From Eukaryota sp. GEM-RC1 (taxonomy: Eukaryota), in contig JAUFOQ010000010.1 in assembly GCA_040285855.1 (NCBI GenBank), positions 1,488,001-1,552,000 on the forward strand: DNA of 64,000 nucleotides. The letters are read 5' to 3'. The notes under the pieces were generated by a model. That model was not told the DNA's origin, made no database searches, and saw only the letters and a program-made list of their open reading frames with translations. Positions 22,371-61,769 of the stretch are shown in pieces. Both the position numbers and the translations under genes were made by a program. Position 1 is the first letter of the stretch. The number at the start of each line of letters is the position of its first letter.

Positions 22371-22407
22371 GTTTTTTATTAAATTTTTATATTAAAAATT
22401 TGCAACT

Positions 22408-32360: not shown

Positions 32361-32365
32361 TATAA

Positions 32366-38504: not shown

Positions 38505-38751
38505 GGTTGCTAGAGCTTTGGCAGATGCCTTGAAAGTTAATACGTCAGTTAAAAGTATTGATCTGCAATGGAATTGTATTGGGGATGTAGGTGCTAGAGC
38601 TTTGGCAGATGCTTTAAAATTTAATGATACTGTTACTAATGTTGACCTGTTTGCAAACTCTATTGGAGATGACGCTGTTAGAGCGTTGGCAGAGGTGTTG
38701 AAAGCTAATGAGAAAATTAAAATTAGTGGTGTAAGTCAACTTAATCTTTAG
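38505..38751 (+). pseudogene. 3' fragment of an NLRC3/RI-type LRR gene
   Basis: ARALADALKVNTSVKSIDLQWNCIGDVGARALADALKFNDTVTNVDLFANSIG; upstream sequence is unrelated. Confidence 0.75.
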
Positions 38752-39520: not shown

Positions 39521-40800
39521 TTACAAGTCCACTGCTACCTGAATTGGACTAATAACACCCTGGAAATCCTTATCAGACAATATAAAGCCACAAAAGTCAC
39601 CAAAAGTCAAAGATCTGTTTAACCTGATTAATTCACATAAATCAATGACTGACTTATTGGAGAAACAACAAATATTCAAAGTTAGTCTCTTGATTGTGAA
39701 ACATTGAGACAAGGACTTTGGTTGTGACATTGCTTCACCACTACATGTAGATATATTCCAAAACTTGGGTGACAAACAAATCACACATCATATTTACCTT
39801 GTTTGGTATAACCCAAGGAGTGAATCAAAAGATTGTAAACGACCCAGGCTTGGTGAAGAAGCGCTTCATAGAAACAAATGTGTTGATATTAAAAATATGA
39901 TGTATTAGAGATATAAAGGTACCTCAAACTTTGATTCAGACACAGGGGTGATACTAATACATCATCGTAGTCACATTGTGGAAGTACATTATAAGTGTTT
40001 GGAGAAAGAAGGAGATGGTTAAGAGCATCAGACTGTATGAGAAACAACATAGAGTTATTAAAGGAGATGGTTAAGAGCATCAGACTGTATGAGAAACAAC
40101 ATAGAGTTATTAAAGGAGATGGTATTCTTCCAAACAATATAAGAATTTCGGTAGTGTGACCTCCTGATTCAAGTACAGTCTACCCTCCCATTAGTGCAAG
40201 CTTTTGGGCAGACCTTAATGGGAGGTTTTGTTTGTACAGACATGAACAGCAGACGACAGCCTTTTATGATATATAAACCAACAAACTACGACTATTGTGC
40301 ACCATTTGGTGATGAACTGAAGATGACACGGATAATCGTCGTTCAAATATAAGTGGTGGGATTGAGGGAAAATATTGCAGAACACTCAACCATCAGCAAA
40401 CAGCAATAATCTCTCAGATTTCTGCTAAATAGTTGAGGGAGAGAAGGGGAGAACTAACGGGGAGGGCGATATAAGAGCGAGAAAGGTCAAGGACGGACCT
40501 GAAACTACCAATATAGGAAAGGAGAAAGTTTCAGATACTCAAAGAAACAAATCACAGAGAACTTGTTCTGAGTTAGTACGCAGAATTGAATATGTGAAGA
40601 GAAGAACCCCTTCAAAGCATTGAGACGACAATAGCAGCATTAACATTGCTAGAGAAGAGTGTTCTTAAAGAAGAGAATCTACAAGAGGGATATGAAAAGA
40701 TAGGGTAATTTATGCAAGAAGTACAGTCACACCTAAAATCGTATTCCCAAGATGACAACGAAAAGAGCAGATGATTGGTGATGAAAAAGGGGAAGCTCAT
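39521..40800 (-). pseudogene. Highly decayed LRR-family gene containing a 52-bp tandem duplication (40009-40123)
   Basis: IKRLTLNICCFSNKSVIDLCELIRLNRSLT resembles ITDLRINNCCFTNEAFAVLCDLIKTSTSLT. 5' boundary uncertain. Confidence 0.5.
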
Positions 40801-41084
40801 GTCTTAAGTTTACCCCTTGTTTCTTTTGCTGCCTAAGCAACAATACTCTCTGTTATCTGCTCTTTCTGAAAGTCAAAAATAAAAACCAATGATCCCGGTT
40901 AAGCTAGATTGGATGTGTGTGATTGATGCAAAGATAAGGTCTCGATCCTGGCTTATATATGGTACTGTAACTGCTGGAAGAGGTTGAAAAAGAACCCGAA
41001 AAGGGAAAAAATTGTCGTGCGACAAAATGATGTCGGAGTTCTCCAGAATGAACTCTTCGACCTGAAGTCTATTTTCTTCCTCAA

Positions 41085-43051
41085 ATGTCTCACTATCTCT
41101 GTGATATTTGTCATGAAATTCTCAAGAATCCGGTAACTACTTGGTGTGGCCACACCTTTTGTATGTCGGACTTGCAGGAATGGCTTGTTTCTCATAACGG
41201 ATGTCCGATCTGTCGAGCTGAAGTGGACAAGTCAAGGCTGTGTCCTAACTACAAGTTGAAAGAAGCTGTTGAAGCCTTTGTTGCTGGTCAAGGTGAGACT
41301 ATTTGTTTTGAGTGTGATGAAGCTGCTGCCACTTGTTATTGCGCAGAATGTGACGCCGATTTCTGTGACAAATGTTTTAACCCTGCTCATCGCCCCAAGT
41401 TGCTACGATCTCATGTTGCTGTCCCCCTAAATAAGAAGCATGCCTACCTTATTCCCAAGTGCCCCAGCCACAGTATGAAGTCGTTAGAGTTGTTCTGCAC
41501 CTTCTGCTCCGTCGCCCTTTGCTCCACTTGTGCTTTCCTTGGTGACCATGACCAACACAAAAGAAGTTGCTTCCCTTTGACGAAGGTCGAACCTCTGTTG
41601 AAAAGAATATCAACTCAATTAATCAAGAGTTGTCGTTAGCCATTGAAAAAATATCTCAGTCAGCTGAAGCTGCTATCCAGCAAGCAACAAGTGGTTTTGT
41701 CCAACTCAAAGAAAGTCTGACTGTCCTGCTCCAAGAAACTATGTTAGACTCTACCATTATGAATGACTTACAATCTGGGAAACCTGTCATGTTCAAGCCA
41801 AAGATCAGCGAAAAATTCACTACCACCACTTCAACCCTTCTCAACAACCAATCTGATATCATCTCCTCTTTAAATGAAGAACTTTTCTCCATCCACTCCG
41901 ATGCTTCTCGTCGTTTGACCTCTCTTTCCGTTGATTCGGAGTCTAGTGTTGGTTCTGATAGGCTTCTAGATGACACTCCTTTACCAATCAAGTCTATTGA
42001 AAGTGTATGCTCTGTACAACAAGTTGAAGAGAAGAAACTTGTTATTGATTGGAGCAAGCTTAGTTCTAAGTTGAAGAATTGTTATGATCAGATGGTGAGA
42101 AATGAGGTTTCTACGATCAATCTATATTACAACTCAATTGGTAAAGAAGGCGCTATTGCAATTGCTGAAGCTTTGAAGGTGAATTCTTCAGTTTCTCAGA
42201 TCGATCTAAATAACAACTCAATTGGTCCTGAAGGTGCTATTGCAATTGCTGAAGCTTTGAAGGTGAATTCTTCAGTTTCTACGATTGGTCTAGGTAACAA
42301 CTCAATTGGTCCTGAAGGTGCTATTGCAATTGCTGAAGCTTTGAAGGTGAATTCTTCAGTTTCTACGATCAATCTACATAGCAACTCAATTGGTCCTGAA
42401 GGTGCTATTGCTGAAGCTTTAAAGGTGAATTCTTCAGTTTCTACGATCGACCTATGTTTCAACTCAATTGGTCCTGAAGGTGCTATTGCAATTGCTGAAG
42501 CTTTGAAGGTGAATTCTTCAGTTTCTACGATCAATCTACATAGCAACTCAATTGGTCCTGAAGGTGCTATTGCAATTGCTGAAGCTTTAAAGGTGAATTC
42601 TTCAGTTTCTACGATCGACCTATGTTTCAACTCAATTGGTCCTGAAGGTGCTATTGCAATTGCTGAAGCTTTGAAGGTGAATTCTTCAGTTTCTACGATT
42701 TATCTACATAGCAACTCAATTGGTCCTGAAGGTGCTATTGCAATTGCTGAAGCTTTAAAGGTGAATTCTTCAGTTTCTACGATTTATCTACATAGCAACT
42801 CAATTGGTCCTGAAGGTGCTATTGCAATTGCTGAAGCTTTAAAGGTGAATTCTTCAGTTTCTACGATCAATCTAGGTGGTAACTCAATTGGTCCTGAAGG
42901 TGCTATTGCAATTGCTGAAGCTTTGAAGGTGAATTCTTCAGTTTCTACGATTTATCTACATAGCAACTCAATTAACAGTCAAACACAACAGTCGTTAAAA
43001 TCACTGCACAAGAATAGAATTAGTTTTCAAAGATATTTTCCTCTGATATAA
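41085..43051 (+). CDS. TRIM-like RING - B-box - B-box - coiled coil - LRR protein (putative E3 ligase); one single-base frameshift near 41590
   Basis: C3HC4 RING CDIC..CGHTFC..CPIC (sixth ligand appears to be Asp); B-box1 CFEC..CAECDADFCDKC..H..H; B-box2 CPSH..FCTFC..LCSTC..H..H; helical region; 11 28-aa LRRs. One extra A in GTCGAACC joins ORFs 41085 and 41567. Confidence 0.88.
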
Positions 43052-43461
43052 AGATCACCCCATGATAAGTCACACATGAACAAATATCAATGCGGTTTAG
43101 CAGTTGTTCATACACAGATTGATTTTCAGTTTTACCCGGTAATTAAGACTCGTCATATCGAAAAGTTCATTTGCTATTGTTTTCAACAACACCACTTATT
43201 AATTGGTATCTGGAAATGATGTAACATTATACTATATGTTTCGAAATATTTCGAATCACCGACACATTGTCTCCTCATAAACACGGTTGTATTTTTTCTC
43301 AAAAAACAGCTTAATTGTCCTTGAGTTGAGTGATGCTTTAGTGATCTGTGATTTAATTGGAAATCTTGTCACACAATTGTCTTAACATACAAAGCAGGTT
43401 TTTGTTTATCTTAAATTGAGTTTATTATCTAACATTATCTAAGCTTCTGTTTACTGGATAT

Positions 43462-45273
43462 GTGTTCTATGAACCGGCTAGAATTTCCGATTTCTATCTA
43501 CATTACAACTCAATTGGTAAAGAAGGCGCTATTGCAATTGCTGAAGCTTTGAAGGTGAATTCGTCTGTTTCTACGATTGGTCTAGGTAACAACTCAATTG
43601 GTCCTGAAGGTGCTATTGCAATTGCTGAAGCTTTGAAGGTGAATTCTTCAGTTTCTACGATCAATCTACATAGCAACTCAATTGGTCCTGAAGGTGCTAT
43701 TGCAATTGCTGAAGCTTTGAAGGTGAATTCTTCAGTTTCTACGATTTATCTACATAGCAACTCAATTGGTCCTGAAGGTGCTATTGCAATTGCTGAAGCT
43801 TTGAAGGTGAATTCTTCAGTTTCTACGATTTATCTACATAGCAACTCAATTGGTCCTGAAGGTGCTATTGCAATTGCTGAAGCTTTGAAGGTGAATTCTT
43901 CAGTTTCTACGATTTATCTACATAGCAACTCAATTGGTCCTGAAGGTGCTATTGCAATTGCTGAAGCTTTGAAGGTGAATTCTTCAGTTTCTACGATTTA
44001 TCTACATAGCAACTCAATTGGTCCTGAAGGTGCTATTGCAATTGCTGAAGCTTTGAAGGTGAATTCTTCAGTTTCTACGATCAATCTAGGTGGTAACTCA
44101 ATTGGTAATGAAGGCGCTATTGCAATTGCTGAAGCTTTAAAGGTGAATTCTTCAGTTTCTACGATCAATCTACATAGCAACTCAATTGGTCCTGAAGGTG
44201 CTATTGCAATTGCTGAAGCTTTGAAGGTGAATTCTTCAGTTTCTACGATTGGTCTAGGTAACAACTCAGTTGGTCCTGAAGGCGCTATTGCAATTGCTGA
44301 AGCTTTGAAGGTGAATTCTTCAGTTTCTACGATCAATCTATATTACAACTCAGTTGGTCCTGAAGGCGCTACTGCAATTGCTGAAGCTTTGAAGGTGAAT
44401 TCTTCAGTTTCTGCGATTTATCTACATAGCAACTCAATTGGTCCTGAAGGTGCTATTGCAATTGCTGAAGCTTTGAAGGTGAATTCTTCAGTTTCTACGA
44501 TCAATCTACATAGCAACTCAATTGGTCCTGAAGGTGCTATTGCAATTGCTGAAGCTTTGAAGGTGAATTCTTCAGTTTCTACGATCAATCTACATAGCAA
44601 CTCAATTGGTCCTGAAGGTGCTATTGCAATTGCTGAAGCTTTGAAGGTGAATTCTTCAGTTTCTACGATCAATCTAGGTGGTAACTCAATTGGTAATGAA
44701 GGCGCTATTGCAATTGCTGAAGCTTTAAAGGTGAATTCTTCAGTTTCTACGATCGACCTATGTTTCAATTCAATTGGTCCTGAAGGTGCTATTGCAATTG
44801 CTGAAGCTTTAAAGGTGAATTCTTCAGTTTCTACGATCAATCTACATAGCAACTCAATTGGTCCTGAAGGTGCTATTGCAATTGCTGAAGCTTTAAAGGT
44901 GAATTCTTCAGTTTCTACGATCAATCTACATAGCAACTCAATTGGTCCTGAAGGTGCTATTGCAATTGCTGAAGCTTTGAAGGTGAATTCTTCAGTTTCT
45001 ACGATTTATCTACATAGCAACTCAATTGGTCCTGAAGGTGCTATTGCAATTGCTGAAGCTTTGAAGGTGAATTCTTCAGTTTCTACGATTTATCTACATA
45101 GCAACTCAATTGGTCCTGAAGGTGCTATTGCAATTGCTGAAGCTTTGAAGGTGAATTCTTCAGTTTCTACGATCAATCTACATAGCAACTCAATTAACAG
45201 TCAAACACAACAGTCGTTAAAATCACTGCACAAGAATAGAATTAGTTTTCAAAGATATTTTCCTCTGATATAA
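43462..45273 (+). CDS. LRR-only cassette 1 (20 units), no in-frame ATG
   Basis: Order GHYYYYNHGWYHHNDHHYYH (G=GLGN, H=NLHS, Y=YLHS, N=NLGG, D=DLCF, W=NLYY). Track start is GTG; upstream in-frame TGA at 43417. Confidence 0.7.
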   Translation: MFYEPARISDFYLHYNSIGKEGAIAIAEALKVNSSVSTIGLGNNSIGPEGAIAIAEALKVNSSVSTINLHSNSIGPEGAIAIAEALKVNSSVSTIYLHSNSIGPEGAIAIAEALKVNSSVSTIYLHSNSIGPEGAIAIAEALKVNSSVSTIYLHSNSIGPEGAIAIAEALKVNSSVSTIYLHSNSIGPEGAIAIAEALKVNSSVSTINLGGNSIGNEGAIAIAEALKVNSSVSTINLHSNSIGPEGAIAIAEALKVNSSVSTIGLGNNSVGPEGAIAIAEALKVNSSVSTINLYYNSVGPEGATAIAEALKVNSSVSAIYLHSNSIGPEGAIAIAEALKVNSSVSTINLHSNSIGPEGAIAIAEALKVNSSVSTINLHSNSIGPEGAIAIAEALKVNSSVSTINLGGNSIGNEGAIAIAEALKVNSSVSTIDLCFNSIGPEGAIAIAEALKVNSSVSTINLHSNSIGPEGAIAIAEALKVNSSVSTINLHSNSIGPEGAIAIAEALKVNSSVSTIYLHSNSIGPEGAIAIAEALKVNSSVSTIYLHSNSIGPEGAIAIAEALKVNSSVSTINLHSNSINSQTQQSLKSLHKNRISFQRYFPLI

Positions 45274-45803
45274 AGATCACCCCATGATAAGTCACACATG
45301 AACAAATATCAATGCGGTTTAGCAGTTGTTCATACACAGATTGATTTTCAGTTTTACCCGGTAATTAAGACTCGTCATATCGAAAAGTTCATTTGCTATT
45401 GTTTTCAACAACACCACGTATTAATTGGTATCTGGAAATGATGTAACATTATACTATATGTTTCGAAATATTTCGAATCACCGACACATTGTCTCGTCAT
45501 AAACACGGTTGTATTTTTTCTCAAAAAACAGCTTAATTGTCCTTGAGTTGAGTGATGCTTTGATTATTCTCAGTGATTTATAAGATGTACAGTATCCTTT
45601 TGTATCTATTCCATAGATATTTTAGTCATGGTAATTTATTAAATATTGGTCAAAATTAGGTTGTTCGTTAGTTTCTGTTTTAGTGATCTGTGATTTAATT
45701 GGAAATCTTGTCACACAATTGTCTTAACATACAAAGCAGGTTTTTGTTTATCTTAAATTGAGTTTATTATCTAACATTATCTAAGCTTCTGTTTACTGGA
45801 TAT

Positions 45804-46691
45804 GTGTTCTATGAACCGGCTAGAATTTCCGATTTCTATCTACATTACAACTCAATTGGTAAAGAAGGCGCTATTGCAATTGCTGAAGCTTTGAAGGTGA
45901 ATTCGTCTGTTTCTACGATTGGTCTAGGTAACAACTCAATTGGTCCTGAAGGTGCTATTGCAATTGCTGAAGCTTTGAAGGTGAATTCTTCAGTTTCTAC
46001 GATCAATCTACATAGCAACTCAATTGGTCCTGAAGGTGCTATTGCAATTGCTGAAGCTTTGAAGGTGAATTCTTCAGTTTCTACGATCAATCTAGGTGGT
46101 AACTCAATTGGTAATGAAGGCGCTATTGCAATTGCTGAAGCTTTAAAGGTGAATTCTTCAGTTTCTACGATCAATCTACATAGCAACTCAATTGGTCCTG
46201 AAGGTGCTATTGCAATTGCTGAAGCTTTGAAGGTGAATTCTTCAGTTTCTACGATCAATCTAGGTGGTAACTCAATTGGTAATGAAGGCGCTATTGCAAT
46301 TGCTGAAGCTTTAAAGGTGAATTTTTCAGTTTCTACGATCGACCTATGTTTCAACTCAATTGGTCCTGAAGGTGCTATTGCAATTGCTGAAGCTTTGAAG
46401 GTGAATTCTTCAGTTTCTACGATCAATCTACATAGCAACTCAATTGGTCCTGAAGGTGCTATTGCAATTGCTGAAGCTTTGAAGGTGAATTCTTCAGTTT
46501 CTACGATTTATCTACATAGCAACTCAATTGGACCTGAAGGTGCTATTGCAATTGCTGAAGCTTTGAAGGTGAATTCTTCAGTTTCTACGATTTATCTACA
46601 TAGCAACTCAATTAACAGTCAAACACAACAGTCGTTAAAATCACTGCACAAGAATAGAATTAGTTTCCAAAGATATTTTCCTCTGATATAA
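45804..46691 (+). CDS. LRR-only cassette 2 (9 units), no in-frame ATG
   Basis: Order GHNHNDHYY; same lead-in and C-cap as the other cassettes. Confidence 0.7.
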   Translation: MFYEPARISDFYLHYNSIGKEGAIAIAEALKVNSSVSTIGLGNNSIGPEGAIAIAEALKVNSSVSTINLHSNSIGPEGAIAIAEALKVNSSVSTINLGGNSIGNEGAIAIAEALKVNSSVSTINLHSNSIGPEGAIAIAEALKVNSSVSTINLGGNSIGNEGAIAIAEALKVNFSVSTIDLCFNSIGPEGAIAIAEALKVNSSVSTINLHSNSIGPEGAIAIAEALKVNSSVSTIYLHSNSIGPEGAIAIAEALKVNSSVSTIYLHSNSINSQTQQSLKSLHKNRISFQRYFPLI

Positions 46692-47221
46692 AGACCACCC
46701 CATGATAAGTCACACATGAACAAATATCAATGCGGTTTAGCAGTTGTTCATACACAGATTGATTTTCAGTTTTACCCGGTAATTAAGACTCGTCATATCG
46801 AAAAGTTCATTTGCTATTGTTTTCAACAACACCACTTATTAATTGGTATCTGGAAATGATGTAACATTATACTATATGTTTCGAAATATTTCGAATCACC
46901 GACACATTGTCTCGTCATAAACACGGTTGTATTTTTTCTCAAAAAACAGCTTAATTGTCCTTGAGTTGAGTGATGCTTTGATTATTCTCAGTGATTTATA
47001 AGATGTACAGTATCCTTTTGTATCTATTCCATAGATATTTTAGTCATGGTAATTTATTAAATATTGGTCAAAATTAGGTTGTTCGTTAGTTTCTGTTTTA
47101 GTGATCTGTGATTTAATTGGAAATCTTGTCACACAATTGTCTTAACATACAAAGCAGGTTTTTGTTTATCTTAAATTGAGTTTATTATCTAACATTATCT
47201 AAGCTTCTGTTTACTGGATAT

Positions 47222-49285
47222 GTGTTCTATGAACCGGCTAGAATTTCCGATTTCTATCTACATTACAACTCAATTGGTAAAGAAGGCGCTATTGCAATTG
47301 CTGAAGCTTTGAAGGTGAATTCGTCTGTTTCTACGATTGGTCTAGGTAACAACTCAATTGGTCCTGAAGGTGCTATTGCAATTGCTGAAGCTTTGAAGGT
47401 GAATTCTTCAGTTTCTACGATCAATCTACATAGCAACTCAATTGGTCCTGAAGGTGCTATTGCAATTGCTGAAGCTTTGAAGGTGAATTCTTCAGTTTCT
47501 ACGATCAATCTAGGTGGTAACTCAATTGGTAATGAAGGCGCTATTGCAATTGCTGAAGCTTTGAAGGTGAATTCTTCAGTTTCTACGATCAATCTAGGTG
47601 GTAACTCAATTGGTAATGAAGGCGCTATTGCAATTGCTGAAGCTTTAAAGGTGAATTCTTCAGTTTCTACGATCAATCTACATAGCAACTCAATTGGTCC
47701 TGAAGGTGCTATTGCAATTGCTGAAGCTTTGAAGGTGAATTCTTCAGTTTCTACGATCAATCTAGGTGGTAACTCAATTGGTAATGAAGGCGCTATTGCA
47801 ATTGCTGAAGCTTTAAAGGTGAATTTTTCAGTTTCTACGATCGACCTATGTTTCAACTCAATTGGTCCTGAAGGTGCTATTGCAATTGCTGAAGCTTTGA
47901 AGGTGAATTCTTCAGTTTCTACGATCAATCTACATAGCAACTCAATTGGTCCTGAAGGTGCTATTGCAATTGCTGAAGCTTTGAAGGTGAATTCTTCAGT
48001 TTCTACGATTTATCTACATAGCAACTCAATTGGTCCTGAAGGTGCTATTGCAATTGCTGAAGCTTTGAAGGTGAATTCTTCAGTTTCTACGATCAATCTA
48101 CATAGCAACTCAATTGGTCCTGAAGGTGCTATTGCAATTGCTGAAGCTTTGAAGGTGAATTCTTCAGTTTCTACGATCAATCTAGGTGGTAACTCAATTG
48201 GTAATGAAGGCGCTATTGCAATTGCTGAAGCTTTAAAGGTGAATTCTTCAGTTTCTACGATCGACCTATGTTTCAACTCAATTGGTCCTGAAGGTGCTAT
48301 TGCAATTGCTGAAGCTTTGAAGGTGAATTCTTCAGTTTCTACGATCAATCTACATAGCAACTCAATTGGTCCTGAAGGTGCTATTGCAATTGCTGAAGCT
48401 TTGAAGGTGAATTCTTCAGTTTCTACGATTTATCTACATAGCAACTCAATTGGTCCTGAAGGTGCTATTGCAATTGCTGAAGCTTTGAAGGTGAATTCTT
48501 CAGTTTCTACGATCAATCTACATAGCAACTCAATTGGTCCTGAAGGTGCTATTGCAATTGCTGAAGCTTTGAAGGTGAATTCTTCAGTTTCTACGATCAA
48601 TCTAGGTGGTAACTCAATTGGTAATGAAGGCGCTATTGCAATTGCTGAAGCTTTAAAGGTGAATTCTCCAGTTTCTACGATCGACCTATGTTTCAACTCA
48701 ATTGGTCCTGAAGGTGCTATTGCAATTGCTGAAGCTTTGAAGGTGAATTCTTCAGTATCTACGATCAATCTACATAGCAACTCAATTGGTCCTGAAGGTG
48801 CTATTGCAATTGCTGAAGCTTTGAAGGTGAATTCTTCAGTTTCTACGATCAATCTAGGTGGTAACTCAATTGGTAATGAAGGCGCTATTGCAATTGCTGA
48901 AGCTTTAAAGGTGAATTTTTCAGTTTCTACGATCGACCTATGTTTCAACTCAATTGGTCCTGAAGGTGCTATTGCAATTGCTGAAGCTTTGAAGGTGAAT
49001 TCTTCAGTTTCTACGATTTATCTACATAGCAACTCAATTGGACCTGAAGGTGCTATTGCAATTGCTGAAGCTTTGAAGGTGAATTCTTCAGTTTCTACGA
49101 TTTATCTACATAGCAACTCAATTGGACCTGAAGGTGCTATTGCAATTGCTGAAGCTTTGAAGGTGAATTCTTCAGTTTCTACGATTTATCTACATAGCAA
49201 CTCAATTAACAGTCAAACACAACAGTCGTTAAAATCACTGCACAAGAATAGAATTAGTTTCCAAAGATATTTTCCTCTGATATAA
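47222..49285 (+). CDS. LRR-only cassette 3 (23 units), no in-frame ATG
   Basis: Order GHNNHNDHYHNDHYHNDHNDYYY. Confidence 0.7.
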   Translation: MFYEPARISDFYLHYNSIGKEGAIAIAEALKVNSSVSTIGLGNNSIGPEGAIAIAEALKVNSSVSTINLHSNSIGPEGAIAIAEALKVNSSVSTINLGGNSIGNEGAIAIAEALKVNSSVSTINLGGNSIGNEGAIAIAEALKVNSSVSTINLHSNSIGPEGAIAIAEALKVNSSVSTINLGGNSIGNEGAIAIAEALKVNFSVSTIDLCFNSIGPEGAIAIAEALKVNSSVSTINLHSNSIGPEGAIAIAEALKVNSSVSTIYLHSNSIGPEGAIAIAEALKVNSSVSTINLHSNSIGPEGAIAIAEALKVNSSVSTINLGGNSIGNEGAIAIAEALKVNSSVSTIDLCFNSIGPEGAIAIAEALKVNSSVSTINLHSNSIGPEGAIAIAEALKVNSSVSTIYLHSNSIGPEGAIAIAEALKVNSSVSTINLHSNSIGPEGAIAIAEALKVNSSVSTINLGGNSIGNEGAIAIAEALKVNSPVSTIDLCFNSIGPEGAIAIAEALKVNSSVSTINLHSNSIGPEGAIAIAEALKVNSSVSTINLGGNSIGNEGAIAIAEALKVNFSVSTIDLCFNSIGPEGAIAIAEALKVNSSVSTIYLHSNSIGPEGAIAIAEALKVNSSVSTIYLHSNSIGPEGAIAIAEALKVNSSVSTIYLHSNSINSQTQQSLKSLHKNRISFQRYFPLI

Positions 49286-49815
49286 AGATCACCCCATGAT
49301 AAGTCACACATGAACAAATATCAATGCGGTTTAGCAGTTGTTCATACACAGATTGATTTTCAGTTTTACCCGGTAATTAAGACTCGTCATATCGAAAAGT
49401 TCATTTGCTATTGTTTTCAACAACACCACTTATTAATTGGTATCTGGAAATGATGTAACATTATACTATATGTTTCGAAATATTTCGAATCACCGACACA
49501 TTGTCTCGTCATAAACACGGTTGTATTTTTTCTCAAAAAACAGCTTAATTGTCCTTGAGTTGAGTGATGCTTTGATTATTCTCAGTGATTTATAAGATGT
49601 ACAGTATCCTTTTGTATCTATTCCATAGATATTTTAGTCATGGTAATTTATTAAATATTGGTCAAAATTAGGTTGTTCGTTAGTTTCTGTTTTAGTGATC
49701 TGTGATTTAATTGGAAATCTTGTCACACAATTGTCTTAACATACAAAGCAGGTTTTTGTTTATCTTAAATTGAGTTTATTATCTAACATTATCTAAGCTT
49801 CTGTTTACTGGATAT

Positions 49816-50787
49816 GTGTTCTATGAACCGGCTAGAATTTCCGATTTCTATCTACATTACAACTCAATTGGTAAAGAAGGCGCTATTGCAATTGCTGAAG
49901 CTTTGAAGGTGAATTCGTCTGTTTCTACGATTGGTCTAGGTAACAACTCAATTGGTCCTGAAGGTGCTATTGCAATTGCTGAAGCTTTGAAGGTGAATTC
50001 TTCAGTTTCTACGATCAATCTACATAGCAACTCAATTGGTCCTGAAGGTGCTATTGCAATTGCTGAAGCTTTGAAGGTGAATTCTTCAGTTTCTACGATC
50101 AATCTAGGTGGTAACTCAATTGGTAATGAAGGCGCTATTGCAATTGCTGAAGCTTTAAAGGTGAATTCTTCAGTTTCTACGATCGACCTATGTTTCAACT
50201 CAATTGGTCCTGAAGGTGCTATTGCAATTGCTGAAGCTTTGAAGGTGAATTCTTCAGTTTCTACGATCAATCTACATAGCAACTCAATTGGTCCTGAAGG
50301 TGCTATTGCAATTGCTGAAGCTTTGAAGGTGAATTCTTCAGTTTCTACGATCAATCTAGGTGGTAACTCAATTGGTAATGAAGGCGCTATTGCAATTGCT
50401 GAAGCTTTAAAGGTGAATTTTTCAGTTTCTACGATCGACCTATGTTTCAACTCAATTGGTCCTGAAGGTGCTATTGCAATTGCTGAAGCTTTGAAGGTGA
50501 ATTCTTCAGTTTCTACGATCAATCTACATAGCAACTCAATTGGTCCTGAAGGTGCTATTGCAATTGCTGAAGCTTTGAAGGTGAATTCTTCAGTTTCTAC
50601 GATTTATCTACATAGCAACTCAATTGGACCTGAAGGTGCTATTGCAATTGCTGAAGCTTTGAAGGTGAATTCTTCAGTTTCTACGATTTATCTACATAGC
50701 AACTCAATTAACAGTCAAACACAACAGTCGTTAAAATCACTGCACAAGAATAGAATTAGTTTCCAAAGATATTTTCCTCTGATATAA
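49816..50787 (+). CDS. LRR-only cassette 4 (10 units), no in-frame ATG
   Basis: Order GHNDHNDHYY. Confidence 0.7.
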   Translation: MFYEPARISDFYLHYNSIGKEGAIAIAEALKVNSSVSTIGLGNNSIGPEGAIAIAEALKVNSSVSTINLHSNSIGPEGAIAIAEALKVNSSVSTINLGGNSIGNEGAIAIAEALKVNSSVSTIDLCFNSIGPEGAIAIAEALKVNSSVSTINLHSNSIGPEGAIAIAEALKVNSSVSTINLGGNSIGNEGAIAIAEALKVNFSVSTIDLCFNSIGPEGAIAIAEALKVNSSVSTINLHSNSIGPEGAIAIAEALKVNSSVSTIYLHSNSIGPEGAIAIAEALKVNSSVSTIYLHSNSINSQTQQSLKSLHKNRISFQRYFPLI

Positions 50788-51317
50788 AGATCACCCCATG
50801 ATAAGTCACACATGAACAAATATCAATGCGGTTTAGCAGTTGTTCATACACAGATTGATTTTCAGTTTTACCCGGTAATTAAGACTCGTCATATCGAAAA
50901 GTTCATTTGCTATTGTTTTCAACAACACCACTTATTAATTGGTATCTGGAAATGATGTAACATTATACTATATGTTTCGAAATATTTCGAATCACCGACA
51001 CATTGTCTCGTCATAAACACGGTTGTATTTTTTCTCAAAAAACAGCTTAATTGTCCTTGAGTTGAGTGATGCTTTGATTATTCTCAGTGATTTATAAGAT
51101 GTACAGTATCCTTTTGTATCTATTCCATAGATATTTTAGTCATGGTAATTTATTAAATATTGGTCAAAATTAGGTTGTTCGTTAGTTTCTGTTTTAGTGA
51201 TCTGTGATTTAATTGGAAATCTTGTCACACAATTGTCTTAACATACAAAGCAGGTTTTTGTTTATCTTAAATTGAGTTTATTATCTAACATTATCTAAGC
51301 TTCTGTTTACTGGATAT

Positions 51318-52205
51318 GTGTTCTATGAACCGGCTAGAATTTCCGATTTCTATCTACATTACAACTCAATTGGTAAAGAAGGCGCTATTGCAATTGCTGA
51401 AGCTTTGAAGGTGAATTCGTCTGTTTCTACGATTGGTCTAGGTAACAACTCAATTGGTCCTGAAGGTGCTATTGCAATTGCTGAAGCTTTGAAGGTGAAT
51501 TCTTCAGTTTCTACGATCAATCTACATAGCAACTCAATTGGTCCTGAAGGTGCTATTGCAATTGCTGAAGCTTTGAAGGTGAATTCTTCAGTTTCTACGA
51601 TCAATCTAGGTGGTAACTCAATTGGTAATGAAGGCGCTATTGCAATTGCTGAAGCTTTAAAGGTGAATTCTTCAGTTTCTACGATCGACCTATGTTTCAA
51701 CTCAATTGGTCCTGAAGGTGCTATTGCAATTGCTGAAGCTTTGAAGGTGAATTCTTCAGTTTCTACGATCAATCTACATAGCAACTCAATTGGTCCTGAA
51801 GGTGCTATTGCAATTGCTGAAGCTTTGAAGGTGAATTCTTCAGTTTCTACGATCAATCTAGGTGGTAACTCAATTGGTAATGAAGGCGCTATTGCAATTG
51901 CTGAAGCTTTAAAGGTGAATTTTTCAGTTTCTACGATCGACCTCTGTTTCAACTCAATTGGTCCTGAAGGTGCTATTGCAATTGCTGAAGCTTTGAAGGT
52001 GAATTCTTCAGTTTCTACGATCAATCTACATAGCAACTCAATTGGTCCTGAAGGTGCTATTGCAATTGCTGAAGCTTTGAAGGTGAATTCTTCAGTTTCT
52101 ACGATTTATCTACATAGCAACTCAATTAACAGTCAAACACAACAGTCGTTAAAATCACTGCACAAGAATAGAATTAGTTTCCAAAGATATTTTCCTCTGA
52201 TATAA
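51318..52205 (+). CDS. LRR-only cassette 5 (9 units), no in-frame ATG
   Basis: Order GHNDHNDHY. Confidence 0.7.
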   Translation: MFYEPARISDFYLHYNSIGKEGAIAIAEALKVNSSVSTIGLGNNSIGPEGAIAIAEALKVNSSVSTINLHSNSIGPEGAIAIAEALKVNSSVSTINLGGNSIGNEGAIAIAEALKVNSSVSTIDLCFNSIGPEGAIAIAEALKVNSSVSTINLHSNSIGPEGAIAIAEALKVNSSVSTINLGGNSIGNEGAIAIAEALKVNFSVSTIDLCFNSIGPEGAIAIAEALKVNSSVSTINLHSNSIGPEGAIAIAEALKVNSSVSTIYLHSNSINSQTQQSLKSLHKNRISFQRYFPLI

Positions 52206-52735
52206 AGATCACCCCATGATAAGTCACACATGAACAAATATCAATGCGGTTTAGCAGTTGTTCATACACAGATTGATTTTCAGTTTTACCCGGTAATTAA
52301 GACTCGTCATATCGAAAAGTTCATTTGCTATTGTTTTCAACAACACCACTTATTAATTGGTATCTGGAAATGATGTAACATTATACTATATGTTTCGAAA
52401 TATTTCGAATCACCGACACATTGTCTCGTCATAAACACGGTTGTATTTTTTCTCAAAAAACAGCTTAATTGTCCTTGAGTTGAGTGATGCTTTGATTATT
52501 CTCAGTGATTTATAAGATGTACAGTATCCTTTTGTATCTATTCCATAGATATTTTAGTCATGGTAATTTATTAAATATTGGTCAAAATTAGGTTGTTCGT
52601 TAGTTTCTGTTTTAGTGATCTGTGATTTAATTGGAAATCTTGTCACACAATTGTCTTAACATACAAAGCAGGTTTTTGTTTATCTTAAATTGAGTTTATT
52701 ATCTAACATTATCTAAGCTTCTGTTTACTGGATAT

Positions 52736-54799
52736 GTGTTCTATGAACCGGCTAGAATTTCCGATTTCTATCTACATTACAACTCAATTGGTAAAGAAGG
52801 CGCTATTGCAATTGCTGAAGCTTTGAAGGTGAATTCGTCTGTTTCTACGATTGGTCTAGGTAACAACTCAATTGGTCCTGAAGGTGCTATTGCAATTGCT
52901 GAAGCTTTGAAGGTGAATTCTTCAGTTTCTACGATCAATCTACATAGCAACTCAATTGGTCCTGAAGGTGCTATTGCAATTGCTGAAGCTTTGAAGGTGA
53001 ATTCTTCAGTTTCTACGATCAATCTAGGTGGTAACTCAATTGGTAATGAAGGCGCTATTGCAATTGCTGAAGCTTTAAAGATGAATTCTTCAGTTTCTAC
53101 GATCGACCTATGTTTCAACTCAATTGGTCCTGAAGGTGCTATTGCAATTGCTGAAGCTTTGAAGGTGAATTCTTCAGTTTCTACGATCAATCTACATAGC
53201 AACTCAATTGGTCCTGAAGGTGCTATTGCAATTGCTGAAGCTTTGAAGGTGAATTCTTCAGTTTCTACGATCAATCTAGGTGGTAACTCAATTGGTAATG
53301 AAGGCGCTATTGCAATTGCTGAAGCTTTAAAGGTGAATTTTTCAGTTTCTACGATCGACCTCTGTTTCAACTCAATTGGTCCTGAAGGTGCTATTGCAAT
53401 TGCTGAAGCTTTGAAGGTGAATTCTTCAGTTTCTACGATCAATCTACATAGCAACTCAATTGGTCCTGAAGGTGCTATTGCAATTGCTGAAGCTTTGAAG
53501 GTGAATTCTTCAGTTTCTACGATTTATCTACATAGCAACTCAATTGGTCCTGAAGGTGCTATTGCAATTGCTGAAGCTTTGAAGGTGAATTCTTCAGTTT
53601 CTACGATTTATCTACATAGCAACTCAATTGGTCCTGAAGGTGCTATTGCAATTGCTGAAGCTTTGAAGGTGAATTCTTCAGTTTCTACGATCAATCTAGG
53701 TGGTAACTCAATTGGTAATGAAGGCGCTATTGCAATTGCTGAAGCTTTAAAGGTGAATTCTTCAGTTTCTACGATCAATCTACATAGCAACTCAATTGGT
53801 CCTGAAGGTGCTATTGCAATTGCTGAAGCTTTGAAGGTGAATTCTTCAGTTTCTACGATCAATCTATATTACAACTCAGTTGGTCCTGAAGGCGCTACTG
53901 CAATTGCTGAAGCTTTGAAGGTGAATTCTTCAGTTTCTGCGATTTATCTACATAGCAACTCAATTGGTCCTGAAGGTGCTATTGCAATTGCTGAAGCTTT
54001 GAAGGTGAATTCTTCAGTTTCTGCGATTTATCTACATAGCAACTCAATTGGTCCTGAAGGTGCTATTGCAATTGCTGAAGCTTTGAAGGTGAATTCTTCA
54101 GTTTCTACGATCAATCTACATAGCAACTCAATTGGTCCTGAAGGTGCTATTGCAATTGCTGAAGCTTTGAAGGTGAATTCTTCAGTTTCTACGATCAATC
54201 TACATAGCAACTCAATTGGTCCTGAAGGTGCTATTGCAATTGCTGAAGCTTTGAAGGTGAATTCTTCAGTTTCTACGATCAATCTAGGTGGTAACTCAAT
54301 TGGTAATGAAGGCGCTATTGCAATTGCTGAAGCTTTAAAGGTGAATTCTTCAGTTTCTACGATCGACCTATGTTTCAACTCAATTGGTCCTGAAGGTGCT
54401 ATTGCAATTGCTGAAGCTTTGAAGGTGAATTCTTCAGTTTCTACGATCAATCTACATAGCAACTCAATTGGTCCTGAAGGTGCTATTGCAATTGCTGAAG
54501 CTTTGAAGGTGAATTCTTCAGTTTCTACGATTTATCTACATAGCAACTCAATTGGTCCTGAAGGTGCTATTGCAATTGCTGAAGCTTTGAAGGTGAATTC
54601 TTCAGTTTCTACGATTTATCTACATAGCAACTCAATTGGTCCTGAAGGTGCTATTGCAATTGCTGAAGCTTTGAAGGTGAATTCTTCAGTTTCTACGATC
54701 AATCTACATAGCAACTCAATTAACAGTCAAACACAACAGTCGTTAAAATCACTGCACAAGAATAGAATTAGTTTTCAAAGATATTTTCCTCTGATATAA
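52736..54799 (+). CDS. LRR-only cassette 6 (23 units), chimeric
   Basis: Order GHNDHNDHYYNHWYYHHNDHYYH. Its only in-frame ATG is an internal GTG>ATG change at 53081. Confidence 0.7.
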   Translation: MFYEPARISDFYLHYNSIGKEGAIAIAEALKVNSSVSTIGLGNNSIGPEGAIAIAEALKVNSSVSTINLHSNSIGPEGAIAIAEALKVNSSVSTINLGGNSIGNEGAIAIAEALKMNSSVSTIDLCFNSIGPEGAIAIAEALKVNSSVSTINLHSNSIGPEGAIAIAEALKVNSSVSTINLGGNSIGNEGAIAIAEALKVNFSVSTIDLCFNSIGPEGAIAIAEALKVNSSVSTINLHSNSIGPEGAIAIAEALKVNSSVSTIYLHSNSIGPEGAIAIAEALKVNSSVSTIYLHSNSIGPEGAIAIAEALKVNSSVSTINLGGNSIGNEGAIAIAEALKVNSSVSTINLHSNSIGPEGAIAIAEALKVNSSVSTINLYYNSVGPEGATAIAEALKVNSSVSAIYLHSNSIGPEGAIAIAEALKVNSSVSAIYLHSNSIGPEGAIAIAEALKVNSSVSTINLHSNSIGPEGAIAIAEALKVNSSVSTINLHSNSIGPEGAIAIAEALKVNSSVSTINLGGNSIGNEGAIAIAEALKVNSSVSTIDLCFNSIGPEGAIAIAEALKVNSSVSTINLHSNSIGPEGAIAIAEALKVNSSVSTIYLHSNSIGPEGAIAIAEALKVNSSVSTIYLHSNSIGPEGAIAIAEALKVNSSVSTINLHSNSINSQTQQSLKSLHKNRISFQRYFPLI

Positions 54800-55329
54800 A
54801 GATCACCCCATGATAAGTCACACATGAACAAATATCAATGCGGTTTAGCAGTTGTTCATACACAGATTGATTTTCAGTTTTACCCGGTAATTAAGACTCG
54901 TCATATCGAAAAGTTCATTTGCTATTGTTTTCAACAACACCACGTATTAATTGGTATCTGGAAATGATGTAACATTATACTATATGTTTCGAAATATTTC
55001 GAATCACCGACACATTGTCTCGTCATAAACACGGTTGTATTTTTTCTCAAAAAACAGCTTAATTGTCCTTGAGTTGAGTGATGCTTTGATTATTCTCAGT
55101 GATTTATAAGATGTACAGTATCCTTTTGTATCTATTCCATAGATATTTTAGTCATGGTAATTTATTAAATATTGGTCAAAATTAGGTTGTTCGTTAGTTT
55201 CTGTTTTAGTGATCTGTGATTTAATTGGAAATCTTGTCACACAATTGTCTTAACATACAAAGCAGGTTTTTGTTTATCTTAAATTGAGTTTATTATCTAA
55301 CATTATCTAAGCTTCTGTTTACTGGATAT

Positions 55330-56301
55330 GTGTTCTATGAACCGGCTAGAATTTCCGATTTCTATCTACATTACAACTCAATTGGTAAAGAAGGCGCTAT
55401 TGCAATTGCTGAAGCTTTGAAGGTGAATTCGTCTGTTTCTACGATTGGTCTAGGTAACAACTCAATTGGTCCTGAAGGTGCTATTGCAATTGCTGAAGCT
55501 TTGAAGGTGAATTCTTCAGTTTCTACGATCAATCTACATAGCAACTCAATTGGTCCTGAAGGTGCTATTGCAATTGCTGAAGCTTTGAAGGTGAATTCTT
55601 CAGTTTCTACGATCAATCTAGGTGGTAACTCAATTGGTAATGAAGGCGCTATTGCAATTGCTGAAGCTTTAAAGGTGAATTCTTCAGTTTCTACGATCGA
55701 CCTATGTTTCAACTCAATTGGTCCTGAAGGTGCTATTGCAATTGCTGAAGCTTTGAAGGTGAATTCCTCAGTTTCTACGATCAATCTACATAGCAACTCA
55801 ATTGGTCCTGAAGGTGCTATTGCAATTGCTGAAGCTTTGAAGGTGAATTCTTCAGTTTCTACGATCAATCTAGGTGGTAACTCAATTGGTAATGAAGGCG
55901 CTATTGCAATTGCTGAAGCTTTAAAGGTGAATTTTTCAGTTTCTACGATCGACCTATGTTTCAACTCAATTGGTCCTGAAGGTGCTATTGCAATTGCTGA
56001 AGCTTTGAAGGTGAATTCTTCAGTTTCTACGATCAATCTACATAGCAACTCAATTGGTCCTGAAGGTGCTATTGCAATTGCTGAAGCTTTGAAGGTGAAT
56101 TCTTCAGTTTCTACGATTTATCTACATAGCAACTCAATTGGACCTGAAGGTGCTATTGCAATTGCTGAAGCTTTGAAGGTGAATTCTTCAGTTTCTACGA
56201 TTTATCTACATAGCAACTCAATTAACAGTCAAACACAACAGTCGTTAAAATCACTGCACAAGAATAGAATTAGTTTCCAAAGATATTTTCCTCTGATATA
56301 A
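55330..56301 (+). CDS. LRR-only cassette 7 (10 units), same protein as cassette 4
   Basis: Order GHNDHNDHYY; a synonymous TCT>TCC change near 55767 distinguishes it from cassette 4. Confidence 0.7.
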   Translation: MFYEPARISDFYLHYNSIGKEGAIAIAEALKVNSSVSTIGLGNNSIGPEGAIAIAEALKVNSSVSTINLHSNSIGPEGAIAIAEALKVNSSVSTINLGGNSIGNEGAIAIAEALKVNSSVSTIDLCFNSIGPEGAIAIAEALKVNSSVSTINLHSNSIGPEGAIAIAEALKVNSSVSTINLGGNSIGNEGAIAIAEALKVNFSVSTIDLCFNSIGPEGAIAIAEALKVNSSVSTINLHSNSIGPEGAIAIAEALKVNSSVSTIYLHSNSIGPEGAIAIAEALKVNSSVSTIYLHSNSINSQTQQSLKSLHKNRISFQRYFPLI

Positions 56302-56603
56302 AGATCACCCCATGATAAGTCACACATGAACAAATATCAATGCGGTTTAGCAGTTGTTCAAACACAGATTGATTTTCAGTTTTACCCGGTAATTAAGACT
56401 CGTCATATCGAAAAGTTCATTTGCTATTGTTTTCAACCACACCACGTATTAATTGGTATCTGGAAATGATGTAACATTATACTATATGTTTCGAAATATT
56501 TCGAATCACCGACACATTGTTTCGTCATAAACACGGTTGTATTTTTTCTCAAAAAACAGCTTAATTGTCCTTGAGTTGAGTGATGCTTTGATTATTCTCA
56601 GTG

Positions 56604-57787
56604 ACTCTAACAACGTAGATATTAAGTGAACGTTACCAATGGAATCGATAAGCTCGAAAATTTTGAAAACTTCAACCCGATACTCATCTGGAAAATTTAA
56701 AAGTTCACTGGTTTTTGAGTCCAAATGATGGTCATTCTTGTAAAGCTCAATTAAACATTTAAACAACCAAACAGGATCAACAACAGGTAACAGAGAAGTG
56801 ATAAAAGAAACTCTTAGGGGGAAAGGTTGTTCATATTCCATTTCTTCAAAAATTTCAAAAAGCTCCGAATTTTGATCAACGAAGTAGAATTGGTTATGTT
56901 CATTAGAAATTTTTAAGAGAGATAAAACATCTTCTTCTGAAAAGAATTCGAATCAAGAAAGTTTTGGCAAGCTGATTCCAACTGGTCTACTTGGAAATAA
57001 ACTGCTAATTGAAAAAGTTGTAAAATATTTGAAATTTTGAAATCAATGAAATTCTGGTAATGAAAAAGGTCGAAAAAAAGACACAAAACATCTTCAGATA
57101 CGCCCGAAAATTCATCAGTATATTCAAAAATTCTCACGTTTGAATCTTCAAAATCACAAGTAAATACATTCTGAAACATTTTTGAAAACGAAATCAATAG
57201 AACAGAATTCAATTTAATAGATGCATTGTTGTAAGAAACATGTACATCTTTAGTGCAAGCTTCTACAATTTTTAAAACTATCTTTTTGAGTCTAATTTAA
57301 AATTGTTACTCTCAAAGTTTGTAAGTCCATTTGTTATTCTCTCAGTAACAAACTCACTTAACTCCTGGAACTGAAGAAGAGAAGCAATGATAGAAAGCGT
57401 AGGGACATTTTCAGGAGTAACAGTAAGTGATTGTCCATAGAGAGTTGACAGGACTGAGAAGAAGATATCAGGATCTGTAAGAAAAGGAAATAGTGGGAAT
57501 TCTACTGTGGTAGAGTACAGACTCTTCTCCCTAAGAACAGGACTGAAAGCACCGACGACGAAGGAATGACAGTGGAAAGAGTTGCCATCGTAGGTAATGA
57601 CAGTGTCAGTAAGATGGTTGTCTCTTTGAAGGGAATAGAGGTTGTTGCAGAAGCAATCTTAAGGGAAGCAATAAGTATTTGGAAGGTCAAGACTATCTAG
57701 AACTCGAGGGCGTTTAGAAGGAGGACTTTTGACGTCAGTGTTGTTGGAAGTTTTAGAAGAGAGTCGAGCATCCCTTGAACTGGGCAT
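56604..57787 (-). pseudogene. BTB-BTB protein paralog, 3'-truncated at the LRR array boundary
   Basis: Colinear with 15722-14525. In-frame TAA near 57660 (TCA in the paralog) and shifts. Homology stops after ISTLLE at 56604. Confidence 0.85.
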
Positions 57788-58471
57788 AGTGACTAAGATG
57801 AATAGGCAAAGTACAGTGCAAAGACAGTTAACTACTTACTGTAGACAACACTGTAAATGGTGGTTCAATTAGTTGTATGTTCAATCCAAATCATAAAACA
57901 TAGGTTAGTTGACATGACATCATCAAACGACCAACAAGTGGAGTCAGTGTGACTCGTGCCGTCTCCTAACTCACATTGAAAGAGATACTGTGATTGCTTC
58001 TGTTCACCATAAAGCACAACACTTAATTACAGAAGAGATCACAGCAGCTGGTTTTCTGACCACCATGAGCCAACATCCCAACACGAATCTCCGATGATCG
58101 TCGAAAATATCTTCGTCTGATAATTATGTGTGTAAATCTAAACATGACATTATACTGTATTCAAATTTAAACCTCATTTGCAGAATAATCGCCAGTGATG
58201 ACAGCTGGACAGTACTTACATTCAACTCTGGGATCATGGTTTCCACATCCATTATCCGGAGTTTGGTCTTGAAGAACAATATTTTGAATATGTTTTGAAC
58301 TTAACCACCAAATCAGCCGTTTTGAAACTCAAAGTCATCTTTACATTTTCATTCAATAAATTCAATTGATTTAAATTTCTTTGGCAACATCCTTATTGCG
58401 AGCAAAGACGATAGTTGAATTTTGGACATTCTTTTCTAGTGATTAGTACTTTAACAAAATGCTCTTCATAT

Positions 58472-61680: not shown

Positions 61681-61769
61681 TAATTGTATAGTATCAAGTA
61701 GGATTATTTCACTTTATAAACACCTTTATCTTACCTCTTTCACCAACAGGTATCAATAATTATTGTCTT

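What the first reader, a model, noticed from the sequence alone, without database searches (positions are those of the whole stretch)
41085..56604. One TRIM-like E3 ligase gene followed by seven start-less variable LRR cassettes: candidate combinatorial receptor system
Seen: a single RING-B-box-B-box-coiled-coil head with its own LRR tail, then seven same-strand LRR-only cassettes (104 units in total) with no stop or frameshift, although most neighbouring genes are broken. All cassettes share the lead-in and C-cap and lack an in-frame start ATG. Known: in TRIM proteins the C-terminal domain selects the substrate. Constant-head plus variable-cassette logic occurs in lamprey VLR LRR assembly, Borrelia vls and trypanosome VSG donor arrays, and alternative-exon clusters. 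Inference: the cassettes may supply interchangeable recognition domains to the one ligase head by splicing or gene conversion, as a protist immune-like system. The simpler alternative is a recent neutral tandem amplification of a 3' gene fragment.
Basis: partly seen in the sequence, partly recalled or inferred. Interest (0 to 1): 0.9.

Follow-up and report, generated by a model that had tools for sequence, protein, structure and literature searches.

The report
Tandem-copied LRR tails behind TRIM-like gene
A gene for a predicted ubiquitin ligase, likely from an anaerobic protist, is followed by seven near-identical copies of its repeat-rich tail, which likely arose by recent ordinary tandem duplication rather than serving as a store of swappable sensor parts.

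Summary
The seven LRR cassettes are real: 104 full units, no stops, with a shared lead-in and cap. The donor-store reading is weak.
(1) The head is frameshifted at 41559-41562 as assembled, and it is one of 13 related RING heads retrieved.
(2) Spacers are 99.7-100% identical, so the array is too young for intactness to mean much (chance of no stop about 0.6-0.67).
(3) The cassettes add only 2 surface motifs that the head lacks; ten paralogues carry 49.
(4) The head shows no long tract copied from a cassette (0 of 8 four-module runs).
(5) The same window holds other orphan 3' LRR fragments.
Best reading: recent tandem amplification by unequal crossover in a skoliomonad-type TRIM-like RING/B-box/LRR family. 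Its repeats have a frozen framework and hypervariable surface positions, as in fungal HNWD receptors.
Open points: every cassette has a branch-point/acceptor-like motif in frame (simulated chance 0.002-0.07, found post hoc), six have an upstream ATG|GT, and new coding changes lean synonymous. No reads were available. The scan's earlier notes showed nothing similar.

The parts
41085..41639 (+). RING-B-box-B-box ORF (184 aa). RING 41100-41213, B-box 1 about 41304-41414, B-box 2 41460-41558. Ends early because of the frameshift.
   Evidence: held as window-encoded protein P0126
41559..41562 (+). A-run at which the frame shifts relative to intact homologues (real mutation or assembly error, unresolved)
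41552..43051 (+). Coiled-coil-like region, linker and the head's own LRR tail (10 full units from 42107, one with an in-frame 6-bp deletion near 42386, plus cap)
42092..42102 (+). Donor-like site ATG|GTGAGA (GT at 42095), phase 0; also the conserved Met-Val-Arg coding motif of paralogues
43052..43419 (+). Spacer 1: 3' flank A plus shortened segment B; a 120-bp deletion at 43340 removes the ATG|GT found in the other spacers
43420..45273 (+). Cassette 1 (20 full units + cap)
45274..45576 (+). Spacer segment A (3' flank; present after the head and after all seven cassettes, 0-5 differences in 288 nt)
45577..45830 (+). Spacer segment B / lead-in: no other match in the window, no substitution among copies. 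Holds ATG 45628, GT 45631, branch-point-like CTAAC 45771 and acceptor-like AG 45785 (ATG equivalents at 47046, 49640, 51142, 52560, 55154).
45762..46691 (+). Cassette 2 (9 full units + cap)
47180..49285 (+). Cassette 3 (23 full units + cap)
49774..50787 (+). Cassette 4 (10 full units + cap)
51276..52205 (+). Cassette 5 (9 full units + cap)
52694..54799 (+). Cassette 6 (23 full units + cap); mosaic of a cassette-5-like 5' half and a cassette-1-like 3' half; internal in-frame ATG at 53081
55288..56301 (+). Cassette 7 (10 full units + cap); same module order as cassette 4
56302..56604 (+). Last copy of segment A, ending at a junction with the BTB pseudogene instead of segment B
56604..57787 (-). 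BTB-BTB pseudogene cut off at the array's right edge (83% identical to 14526-15710)

Best explanation
The locus is a TRIM-like RING/B-box/LRR gene, frameshifted as assembled, followed by seven near-identical copies of its LRR tail and 3' flank that likely arose very recently by one tandem duplication and repeated unequal crossover, and that likely do not act as a dedicated donor store. Shown: the unit structure (segment B, LRRs, cap, segment A), 99.7-100% spacer identity, mosaic module orders among cassettes, and a frozen repeat framework with variation at five positions. Inferred: the first duplication joined downstream flank B to the first LRR unit of a head-like allele; crossovers in the 84-bp and 1.4-2.6-kb registers then changed unit number and copy number; a later rearrangement joined the right end to a BTB pseudogene. 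Inferred function of the family: intact paralogues would be ubiquitin ligases whose LRR solenoid picks substrates, with specificity varied across many genes by in-gene repeat gain, loss and shuffling, as in fungal high-internal-conservation receptors. The array would be a by-product of that recombination-prone design and only an incidental template for it.
For: Youth: spacers 99.65-100% identical, B invariant among copies; chance of no stop given 10-13 new changes is 0.60-0.67. Older neighbours at 83-92% identity carry stops and frameshifts. Low added variety: 8 surface motifs in 111 cassette units, 6 shared with the head; 49 motifs in 77 units of 10 paralogues. No sign of copying into the head: 4 of 10 head units have an exact cassette match; longest head-cassette exact match 137-182 bp against 263-605 bp between cassettes; 0 of 8 head four-module runs occur in cassettes, against 57 of 90 cassette runs found in another cassette. 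Orphan 3' LRR fragments recur: a 2.2-kb 99.9% tandem duplication at 8567-12957 gives a start-less ORF at 10754-11500; 38509-38748 equals the last 80 aa of P0038/P0125; paralogue P0130 has three linker+LRR blocks behind one head. 13 RING heads among the proteins held. Entropy 1.4-3.2 bits at unit positions 3, 5, 7, 8 and 13, at most 1.1 elsewhere; positions 3 and 5 fall on the predicted strands of a NOD2/ribonuclease-inhibitor-like solenoid (paralogue P0002).
Against: New framework changes in cassettes are 5 nonsynonymous to 5-8 synonymous against a neutral 73% nonsynonymous (p 0.10 to 0.008), a hint of selection on them or on their founder. All seven lead-ins have a branch-point/acceptor-like motif open into the LRR frame, and six have an ATG|GT upstream (simulated chance 0.002 strict, 0.03-0.07 for looser rules; found after listing 24 possible routes). 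The head has a phase-compatible donor-like site at 42095. The origin of segment B is inferred, not seen. The exact repeat of cassette lengths (10, 24, 11 units twice; 5514-bp period) with different module orders is unexplained. P0130 is a gene model whose DNA was not seen.
Confidence: 0.6

Rival explanations
1. Cassettes 2-7 are young, separately expressed LRR-only genes. Segment B would be the promoter, start codon and first intron of the next gene downstream, fused in frame to the LRRs by the first duplication and then amplified.
For: ATG|GTAAT at 45628, CTAAC at 45771 and acceptor at 45785 give a phase-0 route in six cassettes. The same pattern occurs 7 times outside the array, never open for 60 codons; simulated chance 0.002. 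Synonymous lean of new changes.
Against: Looser routes arise in 3-7% of simulated spacers. No intron model for this organism was found. No listed protein matches the cassettes closely (best 120 listed of 831 and of 1200; repeat masking could hide models). Cassette 1 has lost the ATG.
Confidence: 0.15
2. One reading: the cassettes feed interchangeable LRR tails to the head, either as alternative 3' exons (donor 42095 to the lead-in acceptors) or as templates for gene conversion.
For: Phase-0 donor-like site and phase-0 acceptor-like sites. Each cassette has its own stop and 3' flank. The cassette next to the head lost its own ATG but kept the acceptor. Cassettes recombine with each other. The head's frameshift may be an assembly error.
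Against: The donor lies downstream of the frameshift, so a real frameshift removes the ligase link. The donor is also a coding motif shared by collinear paralogues. Cassettes add 2 motifs only, and the head has no long tract from them. Many heads exist. Lead-in B has no counterpart upstream of the head's LRRs to anchor conversion.
Confidence: 0.12
3. Copy number or module order is partly an assembly artefact of a shorter or polymorphic array.
For: Near-identical 84-bp and kb-scale repeats; exact 5514-bp period with mixed orders. Published skoliomonad assemblies used R9 nanopore reads with Illumina correction (PMC11316075); whether the window's assembly shares that history was not established.
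Against: Cassettes carry private and linked substitutions. 104 units keep the frame, and all 10 coding homopolymers of 5 or more bases in the locus keep it too. Long reads did rebuild comparable high-identity WD40 arrays correctly (PMC12222747).
Confidence: 0.1

Closest known systems
Fungal HNWD/NWD NLRs with high internal conservation (Podospora het-d, het-e; PMC12222747, passages)
   Same: Near-identical repeat units, a few hypervariable surface positions, and gain, loss and shuffling of units attributed to unequal crossover, with occasional exchange between paralogues.
   Different: Here the repeats are 28-aa ribonuclease-inhibitor-type LRRs behind a RING/B-box head; no NACHT or HET domain; no function shown.
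TRIM/RBCC E3 ligases (PMC5758549, passages)
   Same: RING, B-boxes, a long helical region and a variable C-terminal domain in that order.
   Different: The C-terminal domain is an LRR solenoid; the predicted first helix is about 54 residues, shorter than I recall for animal TRIMs; the window's copy is split by a frameshift.
Borrelia vls system (PMC11499132, abstract)
   Same: One complete-looking gene next to a contiguous run of start-less copies of its variable part.
   Different: vls has one expression site, head-to-head layout, cassettes about 90% identical to it and one-way segmental transfer. Here the strand is the same, each cassette has its own stop and flank, there is little added variety, many heads, and no transfer trace.
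Drosophila mod(mdg4) common exons plus alternative 3' exons (PMC13490949, PMC6237743; search listing only)
   Same: Constant N-terminal part and several possible C-terminal parts, each with its own end.
   Different: There the splice junction is established; here head and paralogues are collinear without an intron and no transcript was seen.
Brown algal ROCO and Tetrahymena LRR exon shuffling (PMC11378527, abstract; PMC6564038, passages)
   Same: Protist or algal LRR families diversified by repeat shuffling and tandem duplication, proposed as immune-like receptors in the algae.
   Different: Those have one LRR per exon; here the LRR arrays are intron-free.
Lamprey VLR assembly and trypanosome VSG donors (recalled, not read)
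   Same: LRR modules or silent copies beside an expressed gene.
   Different: VLR uses an incomplete germline gene and many diverse cassettes; here the head has a full tail and the cassettes hold 8 motifs.

Membership tests
TRIM/RBCC E3 ligase | N-terminal C3HC4 RING | tested here: met
   Pfam zf-C3HC4_2 E 1e-9, residues 6-43
TRIM/RBCC E3 ligase | One or two B-boxes after the RING | tested here: met
   zf-B_box, 2 stretches, E 2e-11; Cys/His spacing
TRIM/RBCC E3 ligase | Coiled coil after the B-box | tested here: inconclusive
   Model of paralogue P0002 has helices 167-220, 224-231 and 244-282 at pLDDT 40-71; dimer not tested
TRIM/RBCC E3 ligase | Tripartite motif and C-terminal domain in one polypeptide | tested here: not met
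   Window copy is split by a frameshift; met in paralogues P0001, P0002, P0004, P0006, P0130
TRIM/RBCC E3 ligase | Ubiquitin ligase activity | not testable with these tools
   needs an assay
vls/VSG-type donor cassette system | Single expression site | tested here: not met
   13 related RING heads among 254 proteins held; expression itself not seen
vls/VSG-type donor cassette system | Start-less copies of the variable region next to the gene | tested here: met
   exceptions: internal ATG 53081 and a possible spliced start
vls/VSG-type donor cassette system | Cassettes hold variety beyond the expressed copy | tested here: not met
   2 of 8 cassette motifs absent from the head, one of them the junction unit
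vls/VSG-type donor cassette system | One-way segmental transfer into the gene | tested here: inconclusive
   No long shared tract, 4 of 10 units matched; only one haplotype seen, clones not testable
Alternative 3' exon cluster (mod(mdg4) type) | Constitutive intron between constant and variable parts | tested here: not met
   Head is collinear with paralogue proteins through linker and LRRs
Alternative 3' exon cluster (mod(mdg4) type) | Phase-compatible acceptor before each variable part | tested here: inconclusive
   Motif in 7 of 7 lead-ins (one ancestral event), simulated chance 0.07 in any phase; organism's intron consensus unknown
Alternative 3' exon cluster (mod(mdg4) type) | Spliced transcripts | not testable with these tools
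High-internal-conservation repeat receptor (HNWD-like behaviour) | Repeat units near-identical at DNA level | tested here: met
   8 of 28 codons invariant in 113 units; most framework variants are rare or synonymous
High-internal-conservation repeat receptor (HNWD-like behaviour) | Few hypervariable surface positions | tested here: met
   Positions 3, 5, 7, 8, 13 in 67 units of 10 paralogues; strand positions from the model; no codon-model test of positive selection was run
High-internal-conservation repeat receptor (HNWD-like behaviour) | Variable unit number and order | tested here: met
   About 5-11 units in paralogues, 9-23 full units in cassettes
HNWD/NLR family proper | NACHT or NB-ARC domain | tested here: not met
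   none in the Pfam scan of head or cassette
Lamprey VLR | Incomplete germline gene completed from diverse cassettes (recalled) | tested here: not met
   Head has its own 10 units, cap and stop

The most novel reading that the evidence does not exclude
The frameshift is an assembly error, the head is live, and a protist TRIM-like ligase switches its substrate-binding LRR tail among eight versions. It would do so by splicing from the phase-0 donor at 42095 to the branch-point/acceptor in each cassette lead-in, while unequal crossover keeps re-ordering the modules. This would be a constant-head, variable-tail immune-like receptor in a metamonad.
Probability: 0.1. Interest if true: 0.85.

Novelty: new variant of a known kind. 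Interest (0 to 1): 0.4.

Why it matters
At family level this looks like an undescribed protist version of a known design: near-identical repeats with a few hypervariable surface positions, here LRRs on a TRIM-like ligase head, in a large gene family with many broken members. I found no paper on it in searches of the held library. The array is a snapshot of the recombination that could drive such a family. If the splice-like motifs are used, it would be a rare combinatorial receptor in a single-celled eukaryote, and ordinary RNA-seq could test that directly. If they are not, the array is an ordinary young amplification.

Tried and rejected
No whole genome was held, so other head-plus-cassette loci could not be scanned as DNA. 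Sequencing-run search: none was listed, no RNA holder listed; this is no evidence either way, and no reads could be laid. Metagenome scans with the head (46 pattern matches, 0 confirmed) and with a cap motif (0) found nothing. No Rfam match in 40000-47300. No notable direct or inverted repeats bound the unit. Five ATG-started versions of the head tail or cassette 6 are not in the protein collection, whereas the RING ORF and 3 of 4 neighbouring ORFs tested are; this is weak, because repeats may have been masked. Programmed -1 frameshifting was considered: a C CCT TTG heptamer follows the break, but the residues of P0128 and P0129 imply it is not kept there; rejected. A 20-nt intron at the break was considered; intact homologues need those residues; rejected. 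The lead-in resembles a stretch of a mammalian NLRC3 (E 4e-4 for the pair), but it was picked from 254 proteins, so about 0.1 overall; treated as chance. The HMMER search for the lead-in's source protein did not run, so the origin of segment B stays open. No intron statistics for this lineage were found (supplement search had no hit and one scanned PDF was unreadable, which may bear on the splice question). The Atlas search gave B-box and B-box+LRR clusters at 0.84-0.90, leads only. One search was too broad and gave nothing. Earlier-findings look-ups gave one unrelated bacterial cassette note, not used. No complex prediction was run.
Full report
Observation. The seven cassettes are present at the stated place. 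They hold 104 full 84-bp LRR units plus one cap unit each, with no stop or frameshift. Each repeat unit of the array is segment B (lead-in), LRRs, cap with stop, and segment A (3' flank). Whole spacers are 99.65-100% identical. A differs at 0-5 of 288 positions. B has no substitution among copies, apart from a 120-bp deletion in spacer 1. B has no other match in the window. After cassette 7, segment A joins a truncated BTB pseudogene at 56604.

The head. Pfam finds a RING and two B-box stretches in 41085-41636 and LRR_6 in the tails. The two halves lie in different frames. Intact homologues read HDQHKKKLLPFDEG across the break, so about one base is missing at the A-run 41559-41562. Whether the break is real is open. 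For an error: four paralogues (the window's own P0126, P0128, P0129, P0131) share the same shift, yet all 6 visible differences among them after the shift are synonymous in the downstream frame, against 26% expected for each (inferred from proteins, assuming single-base changes). That needs several independent origins of one deletion. Also, one published skoliomonad gene set has 29 fragmented BUSCOs against 9 in its transcriptome. For a real mutation: all 10 other coding homopolymers of 5 or more bases in the locus keep the frame, and neighbours carry nonsense substitutions. I put it near even.

Organism and family. All 4 proteins passing E 0.001 among 135 candidates for the head come from Eukaryota sp. 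GEM-RC1, a Skoliomonas-type metamonad (PMC11316075). Paralogues reach 95-98% identity, so the window is from that organism or a close relative. Of 254 proteins held, 13 have this RING head: intact with LRRs (P0001, P0002, P0004, P0006, P0130, and the more distant P0030), truncated, or with another tail (P0003). The same cap also ends a protein with a different N-terminus (P0019) and several head-less models. In 67 units of 10 paralogues, entropy is 2.3, 2.0, 3.2, 1.4 and 1.7 bits at positions 3, 5, 7, 8 and 13, and at most 1.1 elsewhere. A model of P0002 (mean pLDDT 69; LRRs about 86-97; RING under 50) gives a solenoid whose best match is NOD2, E 3e-16, with ribonuclease inhibitors further down. 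By established LRR anatomy, the variable strand positions line the concave binding face. This matches the behaviour described for fungal HNWD repeats (PMC12222747, passages).

Test of the donor-store reading. (1) Variety: cassette units carry 8 surface motifs, the head 7, with 6 in common; 10 paralogues carry 49 in 77 units. (2) Transfer: 4 of 10 head units have an exact cassette match. The longest exact head-cassette match is 137-182 bp, close to the head's own internal repeat (125 bp), against 263-605 bp between cassettes. 0 of 8 four-module runs of the head occur in a cassette. Head and cassettes share a pool of modules, as common descent predicts. (3) Intactness: 3.9% of framework point changes give a stop, so 10-13 new changes leave no stop with probability 0.60-0.67. 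(4) Recurrence: 8567-10762 is repeated at 10762-12957 at 99.9%, giving another start-less LRR-family ORF; 38509-38748 is an orphan copy of the last 80 residues of P0038/P0125; P0130 has three linker+LRR blocks. (5) Cassette 6 joins a cassette-5-like front to a cassette-1-like back, and its following spacer equals that of cassette 1. This is what unequal crossover within the array produces.

Results against my reading. New cassette framework changes are 5 nonsynonymous to 5 synonymous, or 5 to 8 when founder and cap changes are counted; neutral expectation is 73% nonsynonymous, p 0.10 to 0.008. Some may predate the amplification. Listing all ATG/GT/AG routes into the cassette frame gave 24. One looks like a real first intron: ATG|GTAAT, CTAAC, TAAG|, 155 nt, phase 0, in cassettes 2-7. 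Such a route arose in 0.2% of simulated lead-ins, and looser ones in 3-7%; all seven copies count as one event. The head has a phase-0 GTGAGA at 42095, downstream of the frameshift and inside a coding motif shared by collinear paralogues. I found no intron in the window's genes and no intron consensus for the lineage, so these motifs cannot be weighed further. The repeated 10/24/11 lengths are unexplained.

Mechanism, with status. Shown: anatomy, youth, mosaicism among cassettes, family-wide hypervariable positions. Inferred: one duplication joining flank B to the first LRR, then unequal crossover at unit and cassette scale. Inferred from TRIM knowledge (PMC5758549, passages): intact members would ubiquitylate what the LRR binds. 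Untested: expression, splicing, variation among cells, any immune role.

Comparison and novelty. The family works like high-internal-conservation repeat receptors but is not an NLR. It has the TRIM domain order, but the window's copy fails the one-polypeptide test. It fails the main features of vls (PMC11499132, abstract) and of VLR (recalled). It lacks the constitutive intron of mod(mdg4)-type clusters (search listing) and the one-LRR exons of algal ROCO (PMC11378527, abstract) and Tetrahymena genes (PMC6564038, passages). Of PMC11316075 I saw passages, sections 6 and 17, and a supplement search. Searches listed no paper on this family; the library lacks most subscription journals.

Verdict. 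Recent tandem amplification 0.6, separate spliced LRR genes 0.15, donor or alternative-tail system 0.12, artefact 0.1. Interest 0.4; new variant of a known kind at family level.

Noticed in passing
window 8567-12957: 2.2-kb tandem duplication (99.9%) starting inside an LRR-like gene (7128-9305) and leaving a start-less 3' ORF at 10754-11500; a two-copy parallel of the finding.
   Followed up: partly
window 38509-38748: Orphan LRR 3' fragment, 100% identical over 80 aa to the ends of P0038 and P0125, joined to unrelated sequence.
   Followed up: partly
window 1-812, 13298-15749, 56604-57787 (minus): Three BTB-BTB(-Sel1) paralogues at 83-92% identity, with nonsense changes and frameshifts.
   Followed up: partly
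window 32357-35020 and 58463-61188: 2.7-kb dispersed repeat (92% identical) with overlapping ORFs of unknown kind, possibly a mobile element; further pieces at 24551-24828, and 22403-23419 matching 29231-30255.
   Followed up: no
window 1517-2023, 16035-18884, 61692-63998: ORF fragments that look by eye like transposase, non-LTR retroelement and gag-like remains; no Pfam hit for the two scanned (1520-2023, 61692-62654).
   Followed up: no
window 41049-41085: An upstream ATG resembles the 12-residue N-terminal extension of P0129 but is out of frame and meets a stop here.
   Followed up: no
P0126, P0128, P0129, P0131: Four paralogues share the same frameshift while their downstream differences are synonymous in the lost frame: a recurrent assembly error, a mutation hot spot, or spread by conversion.
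   Followed up: partly
P0019, P0026, P0217, P0220: Related LRR tails sit behind other N-termini (another repeat family, kinase domains, reticulon-like domain), suggesting tail swapping in this lineage.
   Followed up: no
window 40012-40121: A direct duplication of about 55 bp upstream of the head, inside a probable mobile-element remnant (seen by eye).
   Followed up: no
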